IMG/VR virus record: IMGVR_UViG_3300029288_000076
Span: 96,001 to 160,000 of that record
DNA length: 64,000 bases
Strand: one strand, 5' to 3'
Source of the DNA: a virus
Lineage: Duplodnaviria; Caudoviricetes
The notes under the pieces are model-generated. The model ran no database searches. It saw nothing but the letters and a program-made list of their open reading frames with translations, and was not told the origin of the DNA. Positions 3,608 through 40,152 of this stretch are shown piece by piece. Numbering within the stretch: the first letter of the stretch is position 1; each line of letters opens with the position of its first letter. The translations under genes were made by a program, and so were the position numbers.

Positions 3608-4165
3608 TTATTCACCTGCACGCCTTCTTGGAAGGTGACTTAAAGCATCTTTCCAATTTTCATATCTAGGAAGCCTAAAGAACTTGCGCTCTTTATATTG
3701 TTTATCTAAGATTTTTCTCATACCTTCTTCAATCACTTTCCCCATGCTATATCTTTCCATGGTATTTTCTCCTCTTTAGAAACTATAACAAAAATTCCAC
3801 AATCAGCACATTGATATGCTTGGCCTTTTTCTTTAATATCAATCTTTTCTATTGGACGGCCAGTTTTCCAATTAATAATATTTTCTACAGGAATCATAAC
3901 AGACATGCAAGTTCCACAATACAAAATCATAATTATTCTTCCTTTTTGATTACCATCTTTTAAATCCTCTCATATACTTAACACTCAACTCTTCCCAAGT
4001 AAGTGACTTACAACTTTTAGATAAATCAATAGATGTTTCAACTATATCCCTTGAACCGCCAATGTAAAATCCAGGTTGGTAAGACTTCTTTATCGTTTCA
4101 TTGTAAAAGTCCATTTCAACATTTTCTGGAAAATGTATAAACATTTTCAATACCTCTTATTTAAT

Positions 4166-4381
4166 TTAATTTAATTTATTAGCATACCTTCTAAAAACAA
4201 AAAATACTCCAGCATAACACGTTCCTACAGCACAACATACTGGCTCCCAACCATTTTTATCTAACTTTTTAATTCTATTTTCAAAAACAAAAGCTGACGC
4301 TTCTGCTGGTATTTGATGGTAATCAAATACAGTGCAATAATCACATTTCTTACTCATTTCTTTCAATTGTCTTTTGGTCAT
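4166..4381 (-). CDS. DUF4177-like small protein
   Basis: FDY...KNGWEPVCC...FVFRR, similar to 2381..2542. Confidence 0.45.
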   Translation of the reverse strand: MTKRQLKEMSKKCDYCTVFDYHQIPAEASAFVFENRIKKLDKNGWEPVCCAVGTCYAGVFFVFRRYANKLN

Positions 4382-7511: not shown

Positions 7512-8756
7512 TCATCCTTTTATAACTCCTAATGGATACAACTTCACCAATGGTTTTACTAAATCTTTTTGAGCTTCCATTACTAAATCAATGTCTTTAT
7601 AAGCTTGTGGAGCTTCACTTAAATCTATTTTTTGCTCTCTATTTTTCCGCTTCTCAGTTTTACCCCATCCTTCATAAACAATATCTTTCATTGCTTCATT
7701 ACATTCTTCAATAGTCAAAGTATCTGAAGCTTTTGAACGAGCCATCCTTCTTCCAGCTCCATGACTACAAGATTCAAATGAATCTTTATTACCTAATCCT
7801 TCAACTATGTAACTAGGAGTGCCCATTGACCCTGGGATAATACCAATTTGACCTAATCTCGCTTGCGTTGCTCCTTTACGATGAATCCAAAGATTCTGAC
7901 CAAAGTGATTTTCTAATTGAGCAAAATTATGATTGATATCTATTTCGCGTTCATAAGAATGGAAAAATCCTTTTTTGTTAAAAGTATGTTCCAAAGCTAT
8001 TTTAAATTTCTCCATCAAACGCTTTCTATTTTCTTCAGCAAATTCCATACACCATTTCATGTGCTTTATATACTCTTTTCCCGCATCATCATCTACGGGT
8101 AAGAAAGCAAGATCTTTATTAGGAATAGCAGCTTGCCATTTTCTATTCAGTTCCAATGCCTTTTTATTATAATAGTCAGCAATAACTGCGCCTAAGTTTC
8201 TAGAACCAGAATGAACCATAAGCCAAACAAATCCATCATCTGATTTTTGAAGTTCTATAAAATGGTTACCACCGCCTAAAGTTCCTAAACTTTTTTCTGC
8301 TCTATCCTGAGTTTTATAACCTTCATTCCACCCAGCTCTGTTGTTATTAAAAATAACAGTAAACATATTATGACGTATGCCTTCATTCACAAAAGTAATC
8401 CACTCTTGCTTTTCTGAATGAACGCTAAAACCAACTGGAATATCTCTTTTTGTAGAATGGAGGATCTCTTGAATAGTTTCTTTATCTAAAATATCAGCGG
8501 GAATATTTGTTTCAACTGCTCGCATTCCACAACTTATATCTTTCCCTACAGCATTGGGAATCACTGCATTTTTACAAGCTATAACTCCGCCTATAGGCAT
8601 TCCATATCCTTCATGGCAATCTGGCATTAGTGCAACATGTCTAACAACTACAGGATGATTGGCTAAAGCAATTGCTTGAGACATAGCTCCTTGCTCTAAA
8701 GGACTACACCAAGATTTGATAGGAATTTTACATCCTATAGTTTGAACCCATTCCAT
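7512..8756 (-). CDS. rtcB: RtcB RNA ligase (2',3'-cyclic phosphate or 3'-P to 5'-OH)
   Basis: MPDCHEGYGMPIG, DISCGM, GTLGGGNHFIE, HSGSR, HRKGAT, IPGSMG, SHGAGR, EAPQAYKDI motifs. Confidence 0.97.
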   Translation of the reverse strand: MEWVQTIGCKIPIKSWCSPLEQGAMSQAIALANHPVVVRHVALMPDCHEGYGMPIGGVIACKNAVIPNAVGKDISCGMRAVETNIPADILDKETIQEILHSTKRDIPVGFSVHSEKQEWITFVNEGIRHNMFTVIFNNNRAGWNEGYKTQDRAEKSLGTLGGGNHFIELQKSDDGFVWLMVHSGSRNLGAVIADYYNKKALELNRKWQAAIPNKDLAFLPVDDDAGKEYIKHMKWCMEFAEENRKRLMEKFKIALEHTFNKKGFFHSYEREIDINHNFAQLENHFGQNLWIHRKGATQARLGQIGIIPGSMGTPSYIVEGLGNKDSFESCSHGAGRRMARSKASDTLTIEECNEAMKDIVYEGWGKTEKRKNREQKIDLSEAPQAYKDIDLVMEAQKDLVKPLVKLYPLGVIKG

Positions 8757-11253: not shown

Positions 11254-12648
11254 TTACTTTGGAACTTCTATATTATATTTTTCTAAAACTTTTAGCATTA
11301 TTCCTTTAGGAGTAAGGTCTTCTGCTGCAAAAATAGCTTTCAATATAGAAGGGCTAAACCCAGAAACTAAAGCCACATTATTATGTTTCACAGTAACTGG
11401 TTGACCTGCATAGCCGCTTGTATTCCAATATACAATAGATGGAATAGAGTAACCAGCAACTACCCATTTATCAAGAGAATTTTCAACTACAGCATTATCA
11501 CCGACCGTCCCCTCATGAAACTGCATATCAGAAACAATAATAAGCATATTAGGCATCATATTGTTTGTAAGATTAAAAAACTTTGCAGTAGACAATATCA
11601 GATCAAGAACTTTATCTATTCTAGTCTCTCCAATAGCACCATCAAATATTTCATTATTAAAAACAGCTTCAGAAAACTTCATTCCATTCCAATCTTTAAA
11701 TTTACCTTCGCTTTCAAATCCTATAAATTTCTTATGAAAAGGATTTTCTTTTGGAATTTTAGCAGAGCAATAAAGGGCCATCCCCTGCGAGATATCAACA
11801 GCTTTAATAGACCCGCTAACTTGTATGCTCATAGAACCTGAAGTATCTGCTATAACAATTGCCCTTGAATCAGTATCCATATAATTTGGTAAAGCTTCAA
11901 ACTGAGCGTCTCCAATTTGTTTATCACCATTTCTTACTGTTCTAACACAATCATGAGGAAAAAGAACGCTAGCATGAATAGTCGCTTCACCTTTTTCAAG
12001 AGCTTCTTTATATTTAGCAAATCTTTCTTCGTCATGCTTTCCAAAAGCATTAGTATATCTGGCCATTGCCACAGAAGGAACAGTTTTGTATTCAATTTCG
12101 TTCCATCTGTTTGTACACATTTTGTGTTCAACAATATGGTCTTTACGAATCTTAGCAAGAAATTTACGAAAGTCTTTTTCTGATTTGATACCAAGAGCAA
12201 CTCTTAATTGCTTATCTTTTCTGTCTGCCCATTTAGCAGCAAGGACATCATTATTGCATAAAGCACTTGCCCACATATCAGCTGCTATATAGTCAGCGTC
12301 AGAATTAAATAAAGATCTTAAATCATCCCATCTTCCAACTAAAGGAAGCCAACCAATATTTAATTCAAGCCATTTTAATCCAATTTCGTCTTGAGCAAGC
12401 CATTTATAAATAGATCTTGCGGCGCTTCTATTCCCACTACCTCCCCTTGCGTCGCGAAGCCAAAGTAAAAGCTTAAAGGCTACTACAGGGTCTACAATCC
12501 AAATCTTCTGAAACAACGACAAAGCAGATTCTTCACCTTCATAGAATGATTCTTTCTTTTTAAAAAGAGAACCAGCCTTACTAAAAAACTCTACTGCATG
12601 GTCAAGAGAATGTTCATACTGATTTGCGCCTTCATGAGTCTTGATCAT
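11254..12648 (-). CDS. DUF2828-family, TROVE/Ro60-like protein with C-terminal vWA domain
   Basis: RDARGGSG, GRWDDL, AAKWA, VPSVAM helical region; vWA MIDAS DTSGS...T...SDMQF; IVYWN and VSGFSP; RBS AGGAG. Confidence 0.85.
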   Translation of the reverse strand: MIKTHEGANQYEHSLDHAVEFFSKAGSLFKKKESFYEGEESALSLFQKIWIVDPVVAFKLLLWLRDARGGSGNRSAARSIYKWLAQDEIGLKWLELNIGWLPLVGRWDDLRSLFNSDADYIAADMWASALCNNDVLAAKWADRKDKQLRVALGIKSEKDFRKFLAKIRKDHIVEHKMCTNRWNEIEYKTVPSVAMARYTNAFGKHDEERFAKYKEALEKGEATIHASVLFPHDCVRTVRNGDKQIGDAQFEALPNYMDTDSRAIVIADTSGSMSIQVSGSIKAVDISQGMALYCSAKIPKENPFHKKFIGFESEGKFKDWNGMKFSEAVFNNEIFDGAIGETRIDKVLDLILSTAKFFNLTNNMMPNMLIIVSDMQFHEGTVGDNAVVENSLDKWVVAGYSIPSIVYWNTSGYAGQPVTVKHNNVALVSGFSPSILKAIFAAEDLTPKGIMLKVLEKYNIEVPK

Positions 12649-12662
12649 TTTAAACTCCTGTT

Positions 12663-12721
12663 CAGGTTGGAACTTTTAAAACATTCAACGTGTTTTTATT
12701 TTGTTTGCTGTAACCAACCTT
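12663..12721 (-). ncRNA. CAGCAA hairpin RNA copy 4, immediately 5' of the DUF2828 RBS
   Basis: AGGTTGG-TTACAGCAA-...-CCAACCT-G; inner stem AAAACA/TGTTTT with 7-nt loop CGTTGAA. Confidence 0.75.
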
Positions 12722-12732
12722 TTTAAATTGTT

Positions 12733-12936
12733 TTAAAATTTATCTCTTTTATCTTCAAGCATTCCAATATATTCTTTTATATATGATTCTAAGGATCTAT
12801 TTTGCTCATCGCTTGAGCTTAATAAAAAACTTTGTAAAGCAATAATTACATCACTAATCATAATATATCTATGTTTAAAACCATCTATACCTAGTTTAGC
12901 TGTATTGAAAGTTATATAAAGATCTTTTTTACTCAT
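12733..12936 (-). CDS. hypothetical protein embedded in the hairpin array
   Basis: 67-aa ORF between hairpins 3 and 4. Confidence 0.5.
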   Translation of the reverse strand: MSKKDLYITFNTAKLGIDGFKHRYIMISDVIIALQSFLLSSSDEQNRSLESYIKEYIGMLEDKRDKF

Positions 12937-12965
12937 TTTCTATCACATAAAAATATTTTAAAAAA

Positions 12966-13022
12966 CAGACTGGGACTTGAAAGCTTAACAGGCTTTTGTT
13001 TTTGTTTGCTGTAACCAGTCTT
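12966..13022 (-). ncRNA. CAGCAA hairpin RNA copy 3 with tRNA-Asn-like anticodon stem-loop
   Basis: AGACTGG-TTACAGCAA-...-CCAGTCT-G; inner AAAGC-CTGTTAA-GCTTT. Confidence 0.75.
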
Positions 13023-13045
13023 GTAAAAGAACTTTAAAATAAAAT

Positions 13046-13094
13046 CAGGTTGAATTTTTATACCCAATGTATTTTTATTGCTGTAATCAACCTT
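13046..13094 (-). ncRNA. CAGCAA hairpin RNA copy 2
   Basis: AGGTTGA-TTACAGCAA-...-TCAACCT-G; inner ATAC-ATTGG-GTAT. Confidence 0.75.
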
Positions 13095-13105
13095 GTAAAT
13101 TTTAA

Positions 13106-13163
13106 CAGATTAGCTTTGTTTTGTCTTTCGACGGCCATATTTTTGATTGCTGAAACTAATCTT
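13106..13163 (-). ncRNA. CAGCAA hairpin RNA copy 1
   Basis: AGATTAG-TTTCAGCAA-...-CTAATCT-G; inner GTC-GAAA-GAC. Confidence 0.75.
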
Positions 13164-13168
13164 GTCTT

Positions 13169-13189
13169 ATACTATATTATATTTTAAAA
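13169..13189 (-). promoter_or_regulatory. conserved phage promoter upstream of the hairpin array and DUF2828
   Basis: Exact 21-mer ending 5 nt before hairpin 1. Confidence 0.8.
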
Positions 13190-13306
13190 ACTATGTCTTA
13201 GAAACATCTTTAGAAATTTCTTTTGATAATAATTCCTCCTCAACTAAAAATTCATATATATATATTTTCTTTTTGTAATCCCAATTGATATCATTCCAAT
13301 ACTTTT

Positions 13307-39390: not shown

Positions 39391-40152
39391 TCATTTTACT
39401 TTCCTCAATATCTTTGAGTCAGAAACCCAAGTATTCCAAACAGGGTTTTCTTCTTTTAAATAAATTCCATCTTCTTTCCATGATTTAACATATTTAACCA
39501 ATAATATAAAATGTCTTTTATTATTATTCTGTTTAGTATATTCAACTCTCCAAACTGCTCCTTCACATTCTTCCAAAGCTCCTTCTCTACCTTCTTTAGG
39601 ATAAAAATTAAATTCTTCAACAGAATAACCTGTTTCACCTCTATAAAGTAAATAAGGAATGTTAAATCTACTATTACCAAGAGCATGATTCTTGTTAATA
39701 ATTTCTTCAAAAGTTATTCTTTCATTTTCAGAATTAAAATAATCAAAAATGAAAAATGGTTCTTTCTTAAAATTGTATTTTGTTCCATGAGCTTGAATAC
39801 ACCACTCACCTATTACTCTATCGCCAGGGTTAAGCAATTCTAGAAATCTATCTTTCTGTTCAAAAACCCATTCATGAAATATCTGGTGCATCTTAAAAGG
39901 TGATGTATTTGCTACATATCCAGCTCTAGTTAATGGTACAACAGTATCTTCATATCTAAGAATGCCTACGTTTGAACCATCAATTTTTTCAGTAACTAAA
40001 ACTATACGCTTTGGTAATTTATCATTCTCAATAGCCATCTTCTCATGACCTGGAGAAGCTTTACTGTCAGATGGACCAAGTCTTGATCCGCTAAGATGTG
40101 GAATTGATCCATAATTCTTAATACCAAGTGGTTTTCTTTCAAATATGTTCAT
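39391..40152 (-). CDS. ATP-dependent RNA ligase (Rnl2-like family; start revised)
   Basis: EKIDGSN (KxDG motif I), GEW, FFIFD, EGAVWR, KYV. Confidence 0.85.
   Translation of the reverse strand: MNIFERKPLGIKNYGSIPHLSGSRLGPSDSKASPGHEKMAIENDKLPKRIVLVTEKIDGSNVGILRYEDTVVPLTRAGYVANTSPFKMHQIFHEWVFEQKDRFLELLNPGDRVIGEWCIQAHGTKYNFKKEPFFIFDYFNSENERITFEEIINKNHALGNSRFNIPYLLYRGETGYSVEEFNFYPKEGREGALEECEGAVWRVEYTKQNNNKRHFILLVKYVKSWKEDGIYLKEENPVWNTWVSDSKILRKVK

What the first reader, a model, noticed from the sequence alone, without database searches (positions are those of the whole stretch)
12678..13140. Variable loops of the CAGCAA hairpins mimic tRNA anticodon stem-loops (possible anticodon-nuclease decoys)
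Seen: copy 3 carries AAAGC-CTGTTAA-GCTTT (12980..12996), a 5-bp stem with a 7-nt loop identical to the bacterial tRNA-Asn(GUU) anticodon loop C32-U33-GUU-A37-A38. Copy 4 has a 6-bp stem with the 7-nt loop CGTTGAA (UUG, Gln-like, but G33). Copies 1 (TCGAAA) and 2 (TTGGG) contain Ser(CGA)- or Pro(UGG)-like loop words but with weaker geometry. Established: anti-phage anticodon nucleases (PrrC, RloC, VapC, PARIS AriB) cut tRNA anticodon loops, and phages counter them with RNA repair. Inference: the array displays a panel of anticodon mimics on a Ro-like scaffold as decoys, sensors or repair substrates, fitting with RtcB and an Rnl2-type ligase in the same genome.
Basis: partly seen in the sequence, partly recalled or inferred. 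Interest (0 to 1): 0.8.

Follow-up and report, generated by a model that had tools for sequence, protein, structure and literature searches.

The report
Anticodon-arm mimics on phage Ro60-partner RNAs
A 186-kb uncultured phage encodes four small RNAs with one shared "handle" just upstream of a Ro60-shaped RNA-binding protein; one carries an exact copy of the asparagine tRNA anticodon hairpin, a design far too frequent across hundreds of related loci to be chance and probably a bait for proteins that read or cut tRNA anticodons.

Summary
On the minus strand lie four 51-61 nt units: AAG, a 6-bp stem, UUACAGCAA, variable cargo, the stem's 3' strand, then CUG. They sit upstream of a DUF2828/DUF7788 gene whose model folds like Ro60.

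- **Unit 3:** a 5-bp stem with loop CUGUUAA, identical to the loop of the phage's own tRNA-Asn(GUU).
- **Unit 4:** a 6-bp stem with loop CGUUGAA. It is anticodon-like but has G33.
- **Units 1 and 2:** not anticodon-shaped. They carry a GAAA tetraloop and an AUUGG pentaloop.

- Of 219 short cargoes, 39 carry a stem of at least 4 bp closing a C-U-NNN-A-A loop. Dinucleotide shuffles give 0.98.
- The reverse complements of the same hairpins give 0.
- 0.8% of control hairpins elsewhere in the loci have this loop.
- No stem exceeds 5 bp, and the G30-C40/A31-U39 pairs occur at tRNA-like frequency.
- The commonest triplets are Lys UUU, Asn GUU and Thr UGU.

Anticodon-arm display is therefore a selected feature of this RNA family. 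The decoy function remains an inference. I found no Rfam family or paper describing this. This scan has noted the same design before on other DNA.

The parts
13104..13163 (-). Unit 1 of the CAGCAA-handle RNA array: AAG, stem GAUUAG/CUAAUC, UUUCAGCAA, cargo with a GUC-GAAA-GAC tetraloop hairpin (13113-13122), then CUGUU
   Evidence: Sequence. Covariance model R1: 48.8 bits, E 1.9e-8. Fold.
13044..13094 (-). Unit 2: AAG, stem GGUUGA/UCAACC, UUACAGCAA, cargo with an AUAC-AUUGG-GUAU pentaloop hairpin (13060-13072), then CUGAU
   Evidence: (47.4 bits). The AUUGG pentaloop recurs in L130 and related loops occur in L010.
12964..13022 (-). Unit 3: AAG, stem GACUGG/CCAGUC, UUACAGCAA, A-rich linker, anticodon-arm mimic, then CUGUU
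   Evidence: (47.9 bits).
12980..12996 (-). Anticodon-arm mimic of unit 3: AAAGC-CUGUUAA-GCUUU. It has a 5-bp stem, C32 U33 GUU A37 A38, and a G30-C40 pair.
   Evidence: Loop identical to the phage tRNA-Asn(GUU) loop. The class is enriched 39 against 0.98 across the family.
12661..12721 (-). Unit 4: AAG, stem GGUUGG/CCAACC, UUACAGCAA, near-anticodon-arm cargo, then CUGAA. It ends 4 nt before the Shine-Dalgarno sequence of the DUF2828 gene.
   Evidence: 59 bits, E 1e-10. Rfam RF01414 sub-threshold hit at 20.8 bits.
12678..12696 (-). Degenerate anticodon-arm-like hairpin of unit 4: AAAACA-CGUUGAA-UGUUUU, with a 6-bp stem and G33 in place of U33
   Evidence: Only 2 CGnnnAA loops occur in the family, and the one-deviation class is weakly enriched.
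11254..12648 (-). 464-aa DUF2828 + DUF7788 protein with a Ro60-like fold (helical-repeat ring plus vWA domain) and an invariant MIDAS motif (D268, S270, S272, T342, D374). It is the presumed partner of the handle RNAs.
   Evidence: Pfam. AlphaFold model at pLDDT 93.8. Foldseek full-length matches to Ro60 structures, E 5e-9, TM about 0.6. Invariant columns. Units occur on the gene strand in 199 of 324 homologous loci.
7512..8756 (-). RtcB RNA ligase, same strand, 2.5 kb downstream of the DUF2828 gene
   Evidence: Pfam PF01139, E 6.8e-112. RtcB is present in 7 of 48 other DUF2828-bearing phage contigs, and in 3 of these it lies within 5 kb of the locus.
39517..40002 (-). Rnl2-type RNA ligase domain (PF09414) elsewhere in the window
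   Evidence: the genome search on the window's own genome: E 1.4e-20, over the family cut-off.

Best explanation
The four units are genes for small RNAs of a widespread family that I could not find in Rfam or in the papers searched. Each RNA has a constant handle: AAG, a 6-bp covarying stem, single-stranded UUACAGCAA, and a 3' CUG(U). The handle is most likely held by the Ro60-fold DUF2828 protein encoded just downstream, much as Y RNAs are held by Ro60.

Each RNA also has an exchangeable cargo. In unit 3 the cargo is a faithful copy of a tRNA-Asn(GUU) anticodon arm, and in unit 4 a degenerate one. Across the family, cargoes are tRNA parts: anticodon arms, T arms, or whole tRNA-like bodies.

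The displayed anticodon arm most likely serves as bait for a protein that recognises tRNA anticodon arms. The most plausible targets are host tRNA-cleaving defence nucleases of the PrrC, PARIS AriB or Cas13 kind. The particle would soak these up or report their activity, and RtcB nearby could reseal cut RNA.

Shown here: the anatomy, the family-wide selection for anticodon-arm geometry, the Ro60 fold, and the linkage. Inferred: protein-handle binding, expression and processing of the RNAs, and the identity of the bait's target.

My odds: about 0.9 that anticodon-arm mimicry is a selected feature, and about 0.35-0.4 that the target is an anticodon nuclease.
For: Units track the gene:
- The regex scan found 397 units on the gene strand against 16 on the other strand in 324 loci.
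- All 88 covariance-model hits lay on the gene strand.
- Only these four units occur in the 64-kb window and the 186-kb genome.

Anticodon-arm enrichment:
- 39 of 219 short cargoes have a stem of at least 4 bp closing CUNNNAA, against 0.98 +/- 0.99 in 300 dinucleotide shuffles (maximum 4). For stems of at least 5 bp the figures are 26 against 0.29.
- With Watson-Crick-only stems, 37 sense cargoes have the loop against 0 on the reverse complement, which has identical hairpin geometry.
- Half of the cargo hairpins with at least 5-bp stems and 7-nt loops read CUNNNAA, against 146 of 17,575 control hairpins elsewhere in the loci.

Geometry:
- Only loop size 7 is over-represented: 66 against 26.
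- Stems are 5 bp in 29 cases and 4 bp in 16, and never longer.
- G30-C40 plus A31-U39 occur together in 31% of the mimics, 24% of real tRNA genes in the loci, and 1.4% of other cargo hairpins.
- CUNNNAA is also the commonest frame in neighbouring real tRNA genes.

Context:
- Family members with long cargo join such arms to T arms and D arms.
- Every array with at least two exact arms carries different triplets.
- The top triplets are UUU 6, GUU 5 and UGU 4 of 45. These are the tRNAs that AriB of PARIS depletes and that phage T5 must supply (PMC12409363).
- This phage itself carries tRNA-Asn GUU, Lys UUU and Thr UGU.
- Isolated anticodon stem-loops are cut by an activated Cas13b (PMC13692257).
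- The protein has a Ro60 fold.
- RtcB lies 2.5 kb away and is similarly close in 3 other phages.
- A Felix-O1-type homologue sits in phage Bas63. The Ro60-like gp130 of Bas63 is reported to counter the Ppl defence (PMC11482910).
Against: - No expression, processing, binding or cleavage data exist for this phage.
- Only about 18% of short cargoes are exact anticodon arms. In this window only 1 of 4 is exact and 1 is degenerate.
- Five of 45 mimic triplets start with A (AAU, ACA, AUC, AUU and similar) and match no usual bacterial tRNA. A few read as stop-codon suppressors.
- The Lys/Asn/Thr excess was noticed after the fact (binomial p 1e-4 against tRNA-gene frequencies). AT-richness favours such triplets.
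- In the PhageMaP preprint the protein alone, from a plasmid, rescued T7 on a Ppl strain. That effect therefore did not need phage-encoded RNAs.
- RtcB is absent from 41 of 48 other DUF2828 phage contigs.
- The pairing statistics for the outer stem are partly circular, because my scanner required pairing.
Confidence: 0.5

Rival explanations
1. The anticodon arms are baits or tethers for tRNA-binding factors other than defence nucleases. Candidates are tRNA-modifying enzymes (t6A, i6A, queuosine, s2U machinery), aminoacyl-tRNA synthetases or the ribosomal decoding site. The particle would bring the Ro60-like protein to them, or titrate them, as Y RNA tethers Ro60 to PNPase.
For: YrlA-type Y RNAs are modified by tRNA enzymes and mimic tRNA (PMC4201824). 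Phage phiLo Ro60 and its Y-like RNAs assemble with host PNPase (PMC12135203). The mimics keep A37-A38 and mostly end in U36 or A36, the contexts of t6A and i6A. The invariant MIDAS site suggests a protein ligand.
Against: Nothing points to a particular enzyme. The wide spread of triplets (22 different) fits a panel against varied nucleases at least as well. The RtcB linkage points to RNA breakage.
Confidence: 0.25
2. The anticodon arms are leftovers of how the family arose. Handles recombined with pieces of tRNA genes in phage tRNA arrays, and the arm itself has no present function.
For: Units often lie in or beside tRNA arrays: 81 loci have tRNA genes within 2.5 kb, as do CP30A and phage allfine. 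Long cargoes are whole or permuted tRNA bodies, and ARAGORN calls four units as tRNAs.
Against: The loop frame CU...AA and the loop-proximal pairs are kept while the stems differ completely: 42 distinct 17-mers among 45. Unit 3's stem differs from the phage's own tRNA-Asn stem. Arrays never repeat a triplet. Neutral relics would decay into the one- and two-deviation classes, which are barely enriched.
Confidence: 0.1
3. The hairpins serve the RNA or the operon itself. They could be stability or processing signals. Unit 4, which abuts the ribosome-binding site, could be a leader through which the protein regulates its own translation.
For: A unit ends within 120 nt upstream of the start codon in 74 instances, 15 of them anticodon-arm type. 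Unit 4 ends 4 nt before the AGGAG of the gene.
Against: This does not explain why the loops follow the tRNA consensus with varied triplets. It also does not explain units lying downstream of the gene or among tRNA genes.
Confidence: 0.1
4. Chance resemblance: an AT-rich hairpin happens to read CUGUUAA.
For: It is a single exact match in this window. Units 1 and 2 do not fit.
Against: Expected frequency is about 0.0013 per unit for stems of at least 5 bp. The family-wide excess is 40- to 90-fold and strand-specific.
Confidence: 0.02

Closest known systems
Ro60 (Rsr) with Y RNAs, especially bacterial and phage YrlA-type tRNA-mimicking Y RNAs (Rfam RF02553; Chen et al. 2014, PMC4201824; Thermus phage phiLo Ro60 with Yrl1/Yrl2, PMC12135203)
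   Same: A ring-plus-vWA protein of Ro60 fold is encoded next to small RNAs. Each RNA has a terminal stem (the presumed protein site) and a module that mimics tRNA. There is occasional linkage to RtcB, as in the bacterial rsr-yrlBA-rtcBA arrangement.
   Different: The protein is Pfam DUF2828/DUF7788, not TROVE, with 11-15% identity to solved Ro60s. The handle motif is UUACAGCAA, not GNCGAAN0-1G. There is no Rfam YrlA hit. YrlA mimics the T, D and acceptor part and puts the Ro stem where the anticodon arm would be. Here many members display the anticodon arm itself.
Class I RNAs of dictyostelid social amoebae (Rfam RF01414; Kjellin et al. 2021, PMC7919456)
   Same: Same length (42-65 nt) and same layout: AAG start, 6-bp covarying terminal stem, (CC)UUACAGCAA just after the 5' strand, variable interior, 3' CUG(U). 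It is the only Rfam family that three of the four units hit.
   Different: Scores are 20 bits against a gathering score of 41.5. Class I RNAs are eukaryotic genes with a DUSE promoter. The only shown binder is the RRM protein Rnp1A/CIBP. The paper calls them unique to Dictyostelia. The few amoeba sequences I saw have mostly unstructured A-rich interiors. Common descent, transfer and convergence are all open.
Phage-encoded tRNAs that replace or resist cleavage by tRNA-targeting defences (T5 tRNA-Lys/Thr/Asn against PARIS AriB, PMC12409363)
   Same: A phage answer to attacks on anticodon arms. The same three anticodons (UUU, UGU, GUU) top the mimic list, and this phage also carries those three tRNA genes.
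   Different: The mimics are isolated 17-nt arms on a non-tRNA scaffold, cannot be aminoacylated and cannot decode. If they act against nucleases they would work by competition or sensing, not by replacing the tRNA.
Bas63 (Escherichia phage JohannRWettstein) gp130, a Ro60-like counter-defence protein against Ppl (PhageMaP preprint, PMC11482910)
   Same: Felix-O1-type homologues match the window protein at about 32% identity over 98% of its length. The Bas63 copy is 95% identical in DNA to the phage allfine copy. In allfine, CAGCAA units lie among the tRNA genes just downstream.
   Different: The reported effect needed only the protein. The RNAs were guessed to be mis-annotated tRNAs and were not identified. 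The mechanism of Ppl is unknown.

Membership tests
CAGCAA-handle RNAs beside DUF2828 genes (uncatalogued family, defined here and in earlier notes of this scan) | AAG start, 6-bp terminal stem whose sequence varies but pairs, and CUG after the 3' strand | tested here: met
   All four units. Stems are GAUUAG, GGUUGA, GACUGG and GGUUGG with perfect partners. R1 hits at E 1e-10 to 4e-8.
CAGCAA-handle RNAs beside DUF2828 genes (uncatalogued family, defined here and in earlier notes of this scan) | Invariant CAGCAA 3 nt after the 5' strand of the stem | tested here: met
   UUACAGCAA in units 2-4 and UUUCAGCAA in unit 1. CAGCAA is invariant in the 41-unit alignment A2.
CAGCAA-handle RNAs beside DUF2828 genes (uncatalogued family, defined here and in earlier notes of this scan) | Same strand as, and close to, a DUF2828/DUF7788 gene | tested here: met
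   The array ends 13 nt before the start codon at 12648. Across loci, 397 units lie on the gene strand against 16 on the other.
tRNA anticodon stem-loop (as a mimic, not as a tRNA) | 5-bp stem closing a 7-nt loop | tested here: met
   Met in unit 3. Unit 4 has a 7-nt loop on a 6-bp stem. Units 1 and 2 do not meet it (4-nt and 5-nt loops).
tRNA anticodon stem-loop (as a mimic, not as a tRNA) | Y32, U33, R37, with A38 common | tested here: met
   Unit 3 is C-U-GUU-A-A. Unit 4 fails U33 (C-G-UUG-A-A). Across the family, 39 exact CUNNNAA loops occur against 0.98 expected.
tRNA anticodon stem-loop (as a mimic, not as a tRNA) | Remainder of a tRNA (acceptor, D and T arms) so that it could be charged and decode | tested here: not met
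   ARAGORN finds no tRNA in the window. The cargoes are 24-34 nt. These are mimics of one arm only.
Dictyostelid Class I RNA (Rfam RF01414) | Score at or above the Rfam gathering threshold (41.5 bits) | tested here: not met
   19.8-20.8 bits, E 0.4-0.8 for units 1, 2 and 4. Unit 3 was not reported.
Dictyostelid Class I RNA (Rfam RF01414) | Terminal stem, 11-nt motif CCUUACAGCAA next to the 5' strand, AAG start, CUGU end | tested here: met
   9 of the 11 motif positions are met. AAG is present in all four units. The end is CUGU in units 1 and 3 and CUGA in units 2 and 4.
Dictyostelid Class I RNA (Rfam RF01414) | DUSE promoter about 60 nt upstream; dictyostelid nuclear gene | tested here: not met
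   This is a phage genome of 186 kb with 30.5% GC. The units lie 10-25 nt apart in an array, which leaves no room for a DUSE per unit.
YrlA-type Y RNA (Rfam RF02553) | Match to the YrlA covariance model; GNCGAAN0-1G in the Ro-binding stem; T, D and acceptor tRNA-like domain | tested here: not met
   No Rfam hit at the gathering threshold or at E up to 10. GUCGAAAG occurs only inside unit 1's cargo as a tetraloop hairpin. The window units have no T or D arms.
Ro60 / TROVE protein family | Ring of helical repeats plus a C-terminal vWA domain with MIDAS | tested here: met
   Model at pLDDT 93.8. Full-length Foldseek matches to Xenopus, human, Deinococcus and phage phiLo Ro60, E 5e-9 to 2e-5. The DxSxS...T...D motif is invariant in 77 homologues.
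Ro60 / TROVE protein family | Sequence membership (Pfam TROVE, PF05731) | tested here: not met
   Only DUF2828 and DUF7788 are reported at E up to 0.01.

The most novel reading that the evidence does not exclude
Phages, and by earlier notes of this scan giant viruses and some bacteria, carry an undescribed particle. In it a Ro60-fold DUF2828 protein holds a set of handle-tagged copies of tRNA anticodon arms, each with a different triplet, as decoys or tripwires that blunt tRNA-cutting immunity (PARIS, PrrC, Cas13-type and perhaps Ppl). The same handle in the unexplained Class I RNAs of social amoebae would then mean that those RNAs are partners of a Ro60-like protein too.
Probability: 0.3. Interest if true: 0.9.

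Novelty: new variant of a known kind. Interest (0 to 1): 0.8.

Why it matters
tRNA cleavage is now recognised as one of the commonest bacterial anti-phage strategies. The known phage answers are repair enzymes and replacement tRNAs. A protein-held panel of anticodon-arm mimics would be a third kind of answer that works at the RNA level.

It would also give a concrete, testable job to a large group of Ro60-like proteins. Homologues occur in 702 cultured phage records, including Felix O1-type phages, KVP40, Campylobacter, Listeria and Staphylococcus phages and mycobacteriophages. More than 4,600 cluster representatives match in metagenomes.

The handle's identity with dictyostelid Class I RNAs gives a lead on RNAs whose function has been open for two decades. 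The claim can be tested with cultured phages and laboratory strains.

Tried and rejected
- **Rfam:** nothing in the 64-kb window at gathering thresholds. The permissive scan gave only sub-threshold Class I RNA hits and one spurious Mu-gpT-DE hit.
- **ARAGORN:** no tRNA in the window.
- **Single-unit folding energies:** not significant (z -1.0 to -1.7). Thermodynamics alone would not have flagged the units.
- **Single-sequence AlphaFold model:** useless at pLDDT 36. It was replaced by the alignment-based model.
- **The search for related loci with the 77-sequence alignment in genome contigs:** failed for lack of a conserved stretch. It was redone with a 15-sequence alignment.
- **RtcB within +/-2.5 kb of the other loci:** none by tblastn. 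A whole-contig search gave 7 of 48, so RtcB is an occasional partner, not a constant one.
- **GNRA tetraloop cargo (unit 1 type):** not enriched, 13 against 8.7.
- **YrlA motif GNCGAAN0-1G in cargo:** weak, 10 against 4.9, and mostly C-GAAA-G tetraloops. I do not read unit 1 as a canonical Ro60 site.
- **Unit 2 as a Pro(UGG) mimic:** rejected on geometry. It belongs to a small pentaloop class, 9 against 2.95.
- **Overlap between mimic triplets and tRNA genes in the same 2.5-kb flanks:** no pattern, 3 of 16 loci.
- **Sigma-70 promoter and terminator scan:** not above shuffles.
- **Literature searches:** DUF2828, Ro60/Y RNA/phage, anticodon stem-loop decoy and Ro60-like/tRNA-like/anti-defence found no description of these RNAs or of anticodon-arm decoys.
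- **Pair counts for the outer stem:** partly circular, because my scanner demanded pairing. I rely instead on the strand asymmetry and the covariance-model hits.
Full report
**What is there.**
Genes in this part of the window run on the minus strand. Read on that strand, 12661-13163 holds four units of 51-61 nt. Each reads AAG, then a 6-bp stem strand, then (U)UUACAGCAA, an A-rich linker, a small hairpin, a short linker, the complementary stem strand, and CUG(U/A).

The stems differ in sequence (GAUUAG, GGUUGA, GACUGG, GGUUGG) and each has a perfect partner. Unit 4 ends 4 nt before the AGGAG and ATG of a 464-aa ORF at 11254-12648. A covariance model built from 41 such units finds exactly these four in the 64-kb window, at E 1e-10 to 4e-8. 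A pattern scan of the whole 186,386-bp genome finds no further copy.

**The observation.**
- Unit 3 carries AAAGC-CUGUUAA-GCUUU at 12980-12996, a 5-bp stem with a 7-nt loop. The phage's own tRNA-Asn(GUU) has the arm CCUGU-CUGUUAA-ACAGG, so the loop is the same and the stem is different.
- Unit 4 carries AAAACA-CGUUGAA-UGUUUU. It has C32, A37 and A38 and a Gln-type triplet, but G at position 33 and a 6-bp stem.
- Unit 1's cargo is a GUC-GAAA-GAC tetraloop hairpin.
- Unit 2's cargo is AUAC-AUUGG-GUAU.

The "CGA" and "UGG" words in units 1 and 2 do not sit in anticodon-arm geometry.

**The protein.**
The ORF is Pfam DUF2828 plus DUF7788. A single-sequence model failed. A model from 77 homologues reached pLDDT 93.8. 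It matches Ro60 structures over its full length: Thermus phage phiLo, Xenopus, human and Deinococcus, at E 5e-9 to 2e-5, TM about 0.6 and 11-15% identity. The MIDAS residues of the vWA domain (D268, S270, S272, T342, D374) are invariant in the alignment. The family is large:
- 4,611 cluster representatives match at E up to 1e-3.
- 702 cultured phage records carry a homologue. They include Felix O1-type coliphages, KVP40, Campylobacter, Listeria, Staphylococcus and Enterococcus phages and mycobacteriophages, and are often annotated "RNA-binding protein" or "Ro-like".

**The pairing recurs.**
I fetched 324 loci around homologues of 31-70% identity from viral, metagenome and prokaryote-genome collections, plus Campylobacter phage CP30A and coliphage allfine. 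A scanner for the handle found 397 units on the gene strand against 16 on the opposite strand, in 199 loci. That gave 347 unique units. All 88 covariance-model hits in 81 loci lay on the gene strand. Units lie just upstream of the gene, just downstream, or among neighbouring tRNA genes.

Among the 219 unique units with cargo of 60 nt or less:

| Measure | Observed | Control |
|---|---|---|
| Units with a stem of at least 4 bp closing C-U-NNN-A-A | 39 | 0.98 +/- 0.99 in 300 dinucleotide-preserving shuffles (maximum 4) |
| Same, stems of at least 5 bp | 26 | 0.29 |
| Same, Watson-Crick-only stems of at least 4 bp | 37 | 0 on the reverse complements, which keep the same 94 hairpins |
| Share of 7-nt-loop hairpins (stems of at least 5 bp) reading CUNNNAA, on the first 164 loci | 19 of 38 | 146 of 17,575 hairpins elsewhere in the loci, both strands |

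The last two rows are controls that do not destroy hairpins.

Features that I did not select for also agree with tRNA:
- Only loop size 7 is over-represented, 66 against 26.
- Stems are 5 bp in 29 cases and 4 bp in 16, and never longer.
- The loop-proximal pairs G30-C40 and A31-U39 occur together in 31% of the mimics, 24% of real tRNA genes in the loci, and 1.4% of other cargo hairpins.
- CUNNNAA is also the commonest loop frame of the tRNA genes in these loci.
- Long-cargo members join such arms to T arms and D arms, or carry whole or permuted tRNA-like bodies. ARAGORN calls four of them as tRNAs.
- The 45 Y-U-NNN-R-N arms comprise 42 distinct 17-mers, and the exact C-U-NNN-A-A arms come from 36 loci.
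- Every array with two or more exact arms carries different triplets.

Anticodon-arm display is thus a selected, recurrent cargo type of this RNA family, and unit 3 is a clean example. Loops with one deviation, such as unit 4, are only weakly enriched at 15 against 7.95. Unit 4 is best called a degenerate or variant arm.

**Which anticodons.**
The triplets are spread over 22 kinds. The commonest are UUU (6), GUU (5), UGU (4), GUC, CAU and UGA (3 each). Lys UUU, Asn GUU and Thr UGU together make 15 of 45. Expectation from the tRNA genes in the same loci is about 5 (binomial p 1e-4). I noticed this pattern after the fact, and AT-richness helps such triplets.

These three are the tRNAs depleted by the PARIS effector AriB, and the ones phage T5 must supply to escape it (PMC12409363). 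This phage carries seven tRNA genes, which include those three: Arg UCU, Pro UGG, Asn GUU, Lys UUU, Thr UGU, Gln UUG and Leu UAA. Five mimic triplets begin with A, and a few read as suppressors (UUA, UCA). Not every arm copies a real tRNA.

**How it most likely works.**

Shown here:
- the anatomy;
- the strand-specific linkage to a Ro60-fold protein;
- selection for anticodon-arm geometry;
- RtcB 2.5 kb downstream on the same strand;
- an Rnl2-type ligase elsewhere in the window.

RtcB is present in 7 of 48 other DUF2828 phage contigs, and in 3 of these it lies within 5 kb of the locus.

Inferred:
- the RNAs are made and trimmed to about 55-60 nt;
- the protein holds the handle, by analogy with Ro60 and Y RNAs (PMC4201824; PMC12135203);
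- the exposed arm is bait for something that recognises anticodon arms.

Host anticodon nucleases are the most plausible target. They are common anti-phage effectors. At least one activated nuclease cuts isolated anticodon stem-loops (PMC13692257). The triplet spectrum and the repair ligases point the same way.

The one experimental datum on the protein family cuts both ways. A Ro60-like protein of phage Bas63, gp130, counters the Ppl defence and can be moved to T7, but the protein alone sufficed (PMC11482910). I confirmed that Bas63 carries a Felix-O1-type homologue of the window protein. I also confirmed that a sister phage has CAGCAA units among the tRNA genes just downstream.

I put about 0.9 on mimicry being selected and about 0.35-0.4 on the nuclease-decoy or nuclease-sensor reading. 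The rivals are baiting of tRNA-modifying enzymes, synthetases or ribosomes, evolutionary leftovers of tRNA capture, and roles in processing or autoregulation.

**Comparison with what is known.**
- *Y RNA system.* The system works like a Ro60/Y RNA particle but fails the membership tests for YrlA: no Rfam hit, a different handle motif, and a protein outside Pfam TROVE.
- *Class I RNAs.* The handle matches dictyostelid Class I RNAs feature for feature: AAG, 6-bp stem, UUACAGCAA, CUG(U) and overall length. It scores only 20 bits against a threshold of 41.5 and lies in a phage. I record this as a strong resemblance, not as membership.
- *Literature.* Jumbo-phage surveys mention TROVE proteins "with a tRNA-like partner" in RNA repair (PMC7824862). 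I found no paper or Rfam family describing this handle in viruses, or isolated anticodon arms as phage RNAs.
- *Earlier notes of this scan.* They report the same pairing, and anticodon-arm cargo, in other genomes and in this genome.

**Verdict.**
This is a real, non-chance feature. The functional reading is plausible but unproven. I class it as a new variant of the Ro60/Y RNA kind of system, with high interest.

Noticed in passing
window 12733-12936 (-): A 67-aa ORF with no Pfam hit sits between units 3 and 4 and splits the array. Close relatives such as L001 have only about 90 nt there.
   Followed up: partly
L001:2690-2930: Four copies of a second repeat, AGCGAGCCA-N8-9-AAGACACCCA, are interleaved with the CAGCAA units upstream of the DUF2828 gene in a 67%-identical relative. 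Possibly promoters or another RNA element.
   Followed up: no
window 13113-13122 (-), unit 1 cargo: GUCGAAAG fits the GNCGAAN0-1G motif proposed as the Ro60 site of YrlA RNAs. In the family it is only weakly enriched (10 against 4.9) and is mostly a C-GAAA-G tetraloop. The same GUC-GAAA-GAC hairpin occurs in L131.
   Followed up: yes
window 13060-13072 (-), unit 2 cargo; L130; L010:2279-2344 and 4132-4186: A small recurrent cargo class of hairpins with loops AUUGG, AUGGG or AUUGGGA: 9 units against 2.95 expected. Meaning unknown.
   Followed up: partly
L003:6560-6677, L070:1309, L113:2087, L003:4463-4579: Long-cargo units are tRNA-shaped in different ways. In some the handle replaces the acceptor stem (D arm, anticodon arm, T arm in normal order). 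In others the tRNA body is circularly permuted, with the handle at the anticodon-arm or D-arm junction.
   Followed up: partly
L120, L310, L029, L311: Some displayed triplets are suppressor-type (UUA twice, UCA once). ARAGORN calls one unit in L311 a tRNA-Stop(UUA).
   Followed up: no
window 13171-13199 and 13099-13127 (-): Two sigma-70-like sites (AAGACA-17-TATAGT and AAGACA-17-TAAAAT) are placed so that transcription would start at the AAG of units 1 and 2. The overall count of such sites is not above shuffles.
   Followed up: partly
genome G000:169123-174811 (outside the window): All seven phage tRNA genes encode their 3' CCA. The set includes the three tRNAs (Lys UUU, Thr UGU, Asn GUU) reported as PARIS targets.
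   Followed up: partly
G007 (L015), G014 (L030), G008 (L017): In three other large phage contigs RtcB lies 2-4 kb from the DUF2828 locus, as it does here. This recalls the bacterial rsr-yrl-rtcBA arrangement.
   Followed up: partly
L245-L324 (genome contigs): DUF2828 genes with CAGCAA units occur in 44 of 80 loci from bacterial and archaeal assemblies, many of them gut Lachnospiraceae, Treponema and Clostridia MAGs. Whether these are prophages, contaminating phage contigs or cellular genes was not examined.
   Followed up: no
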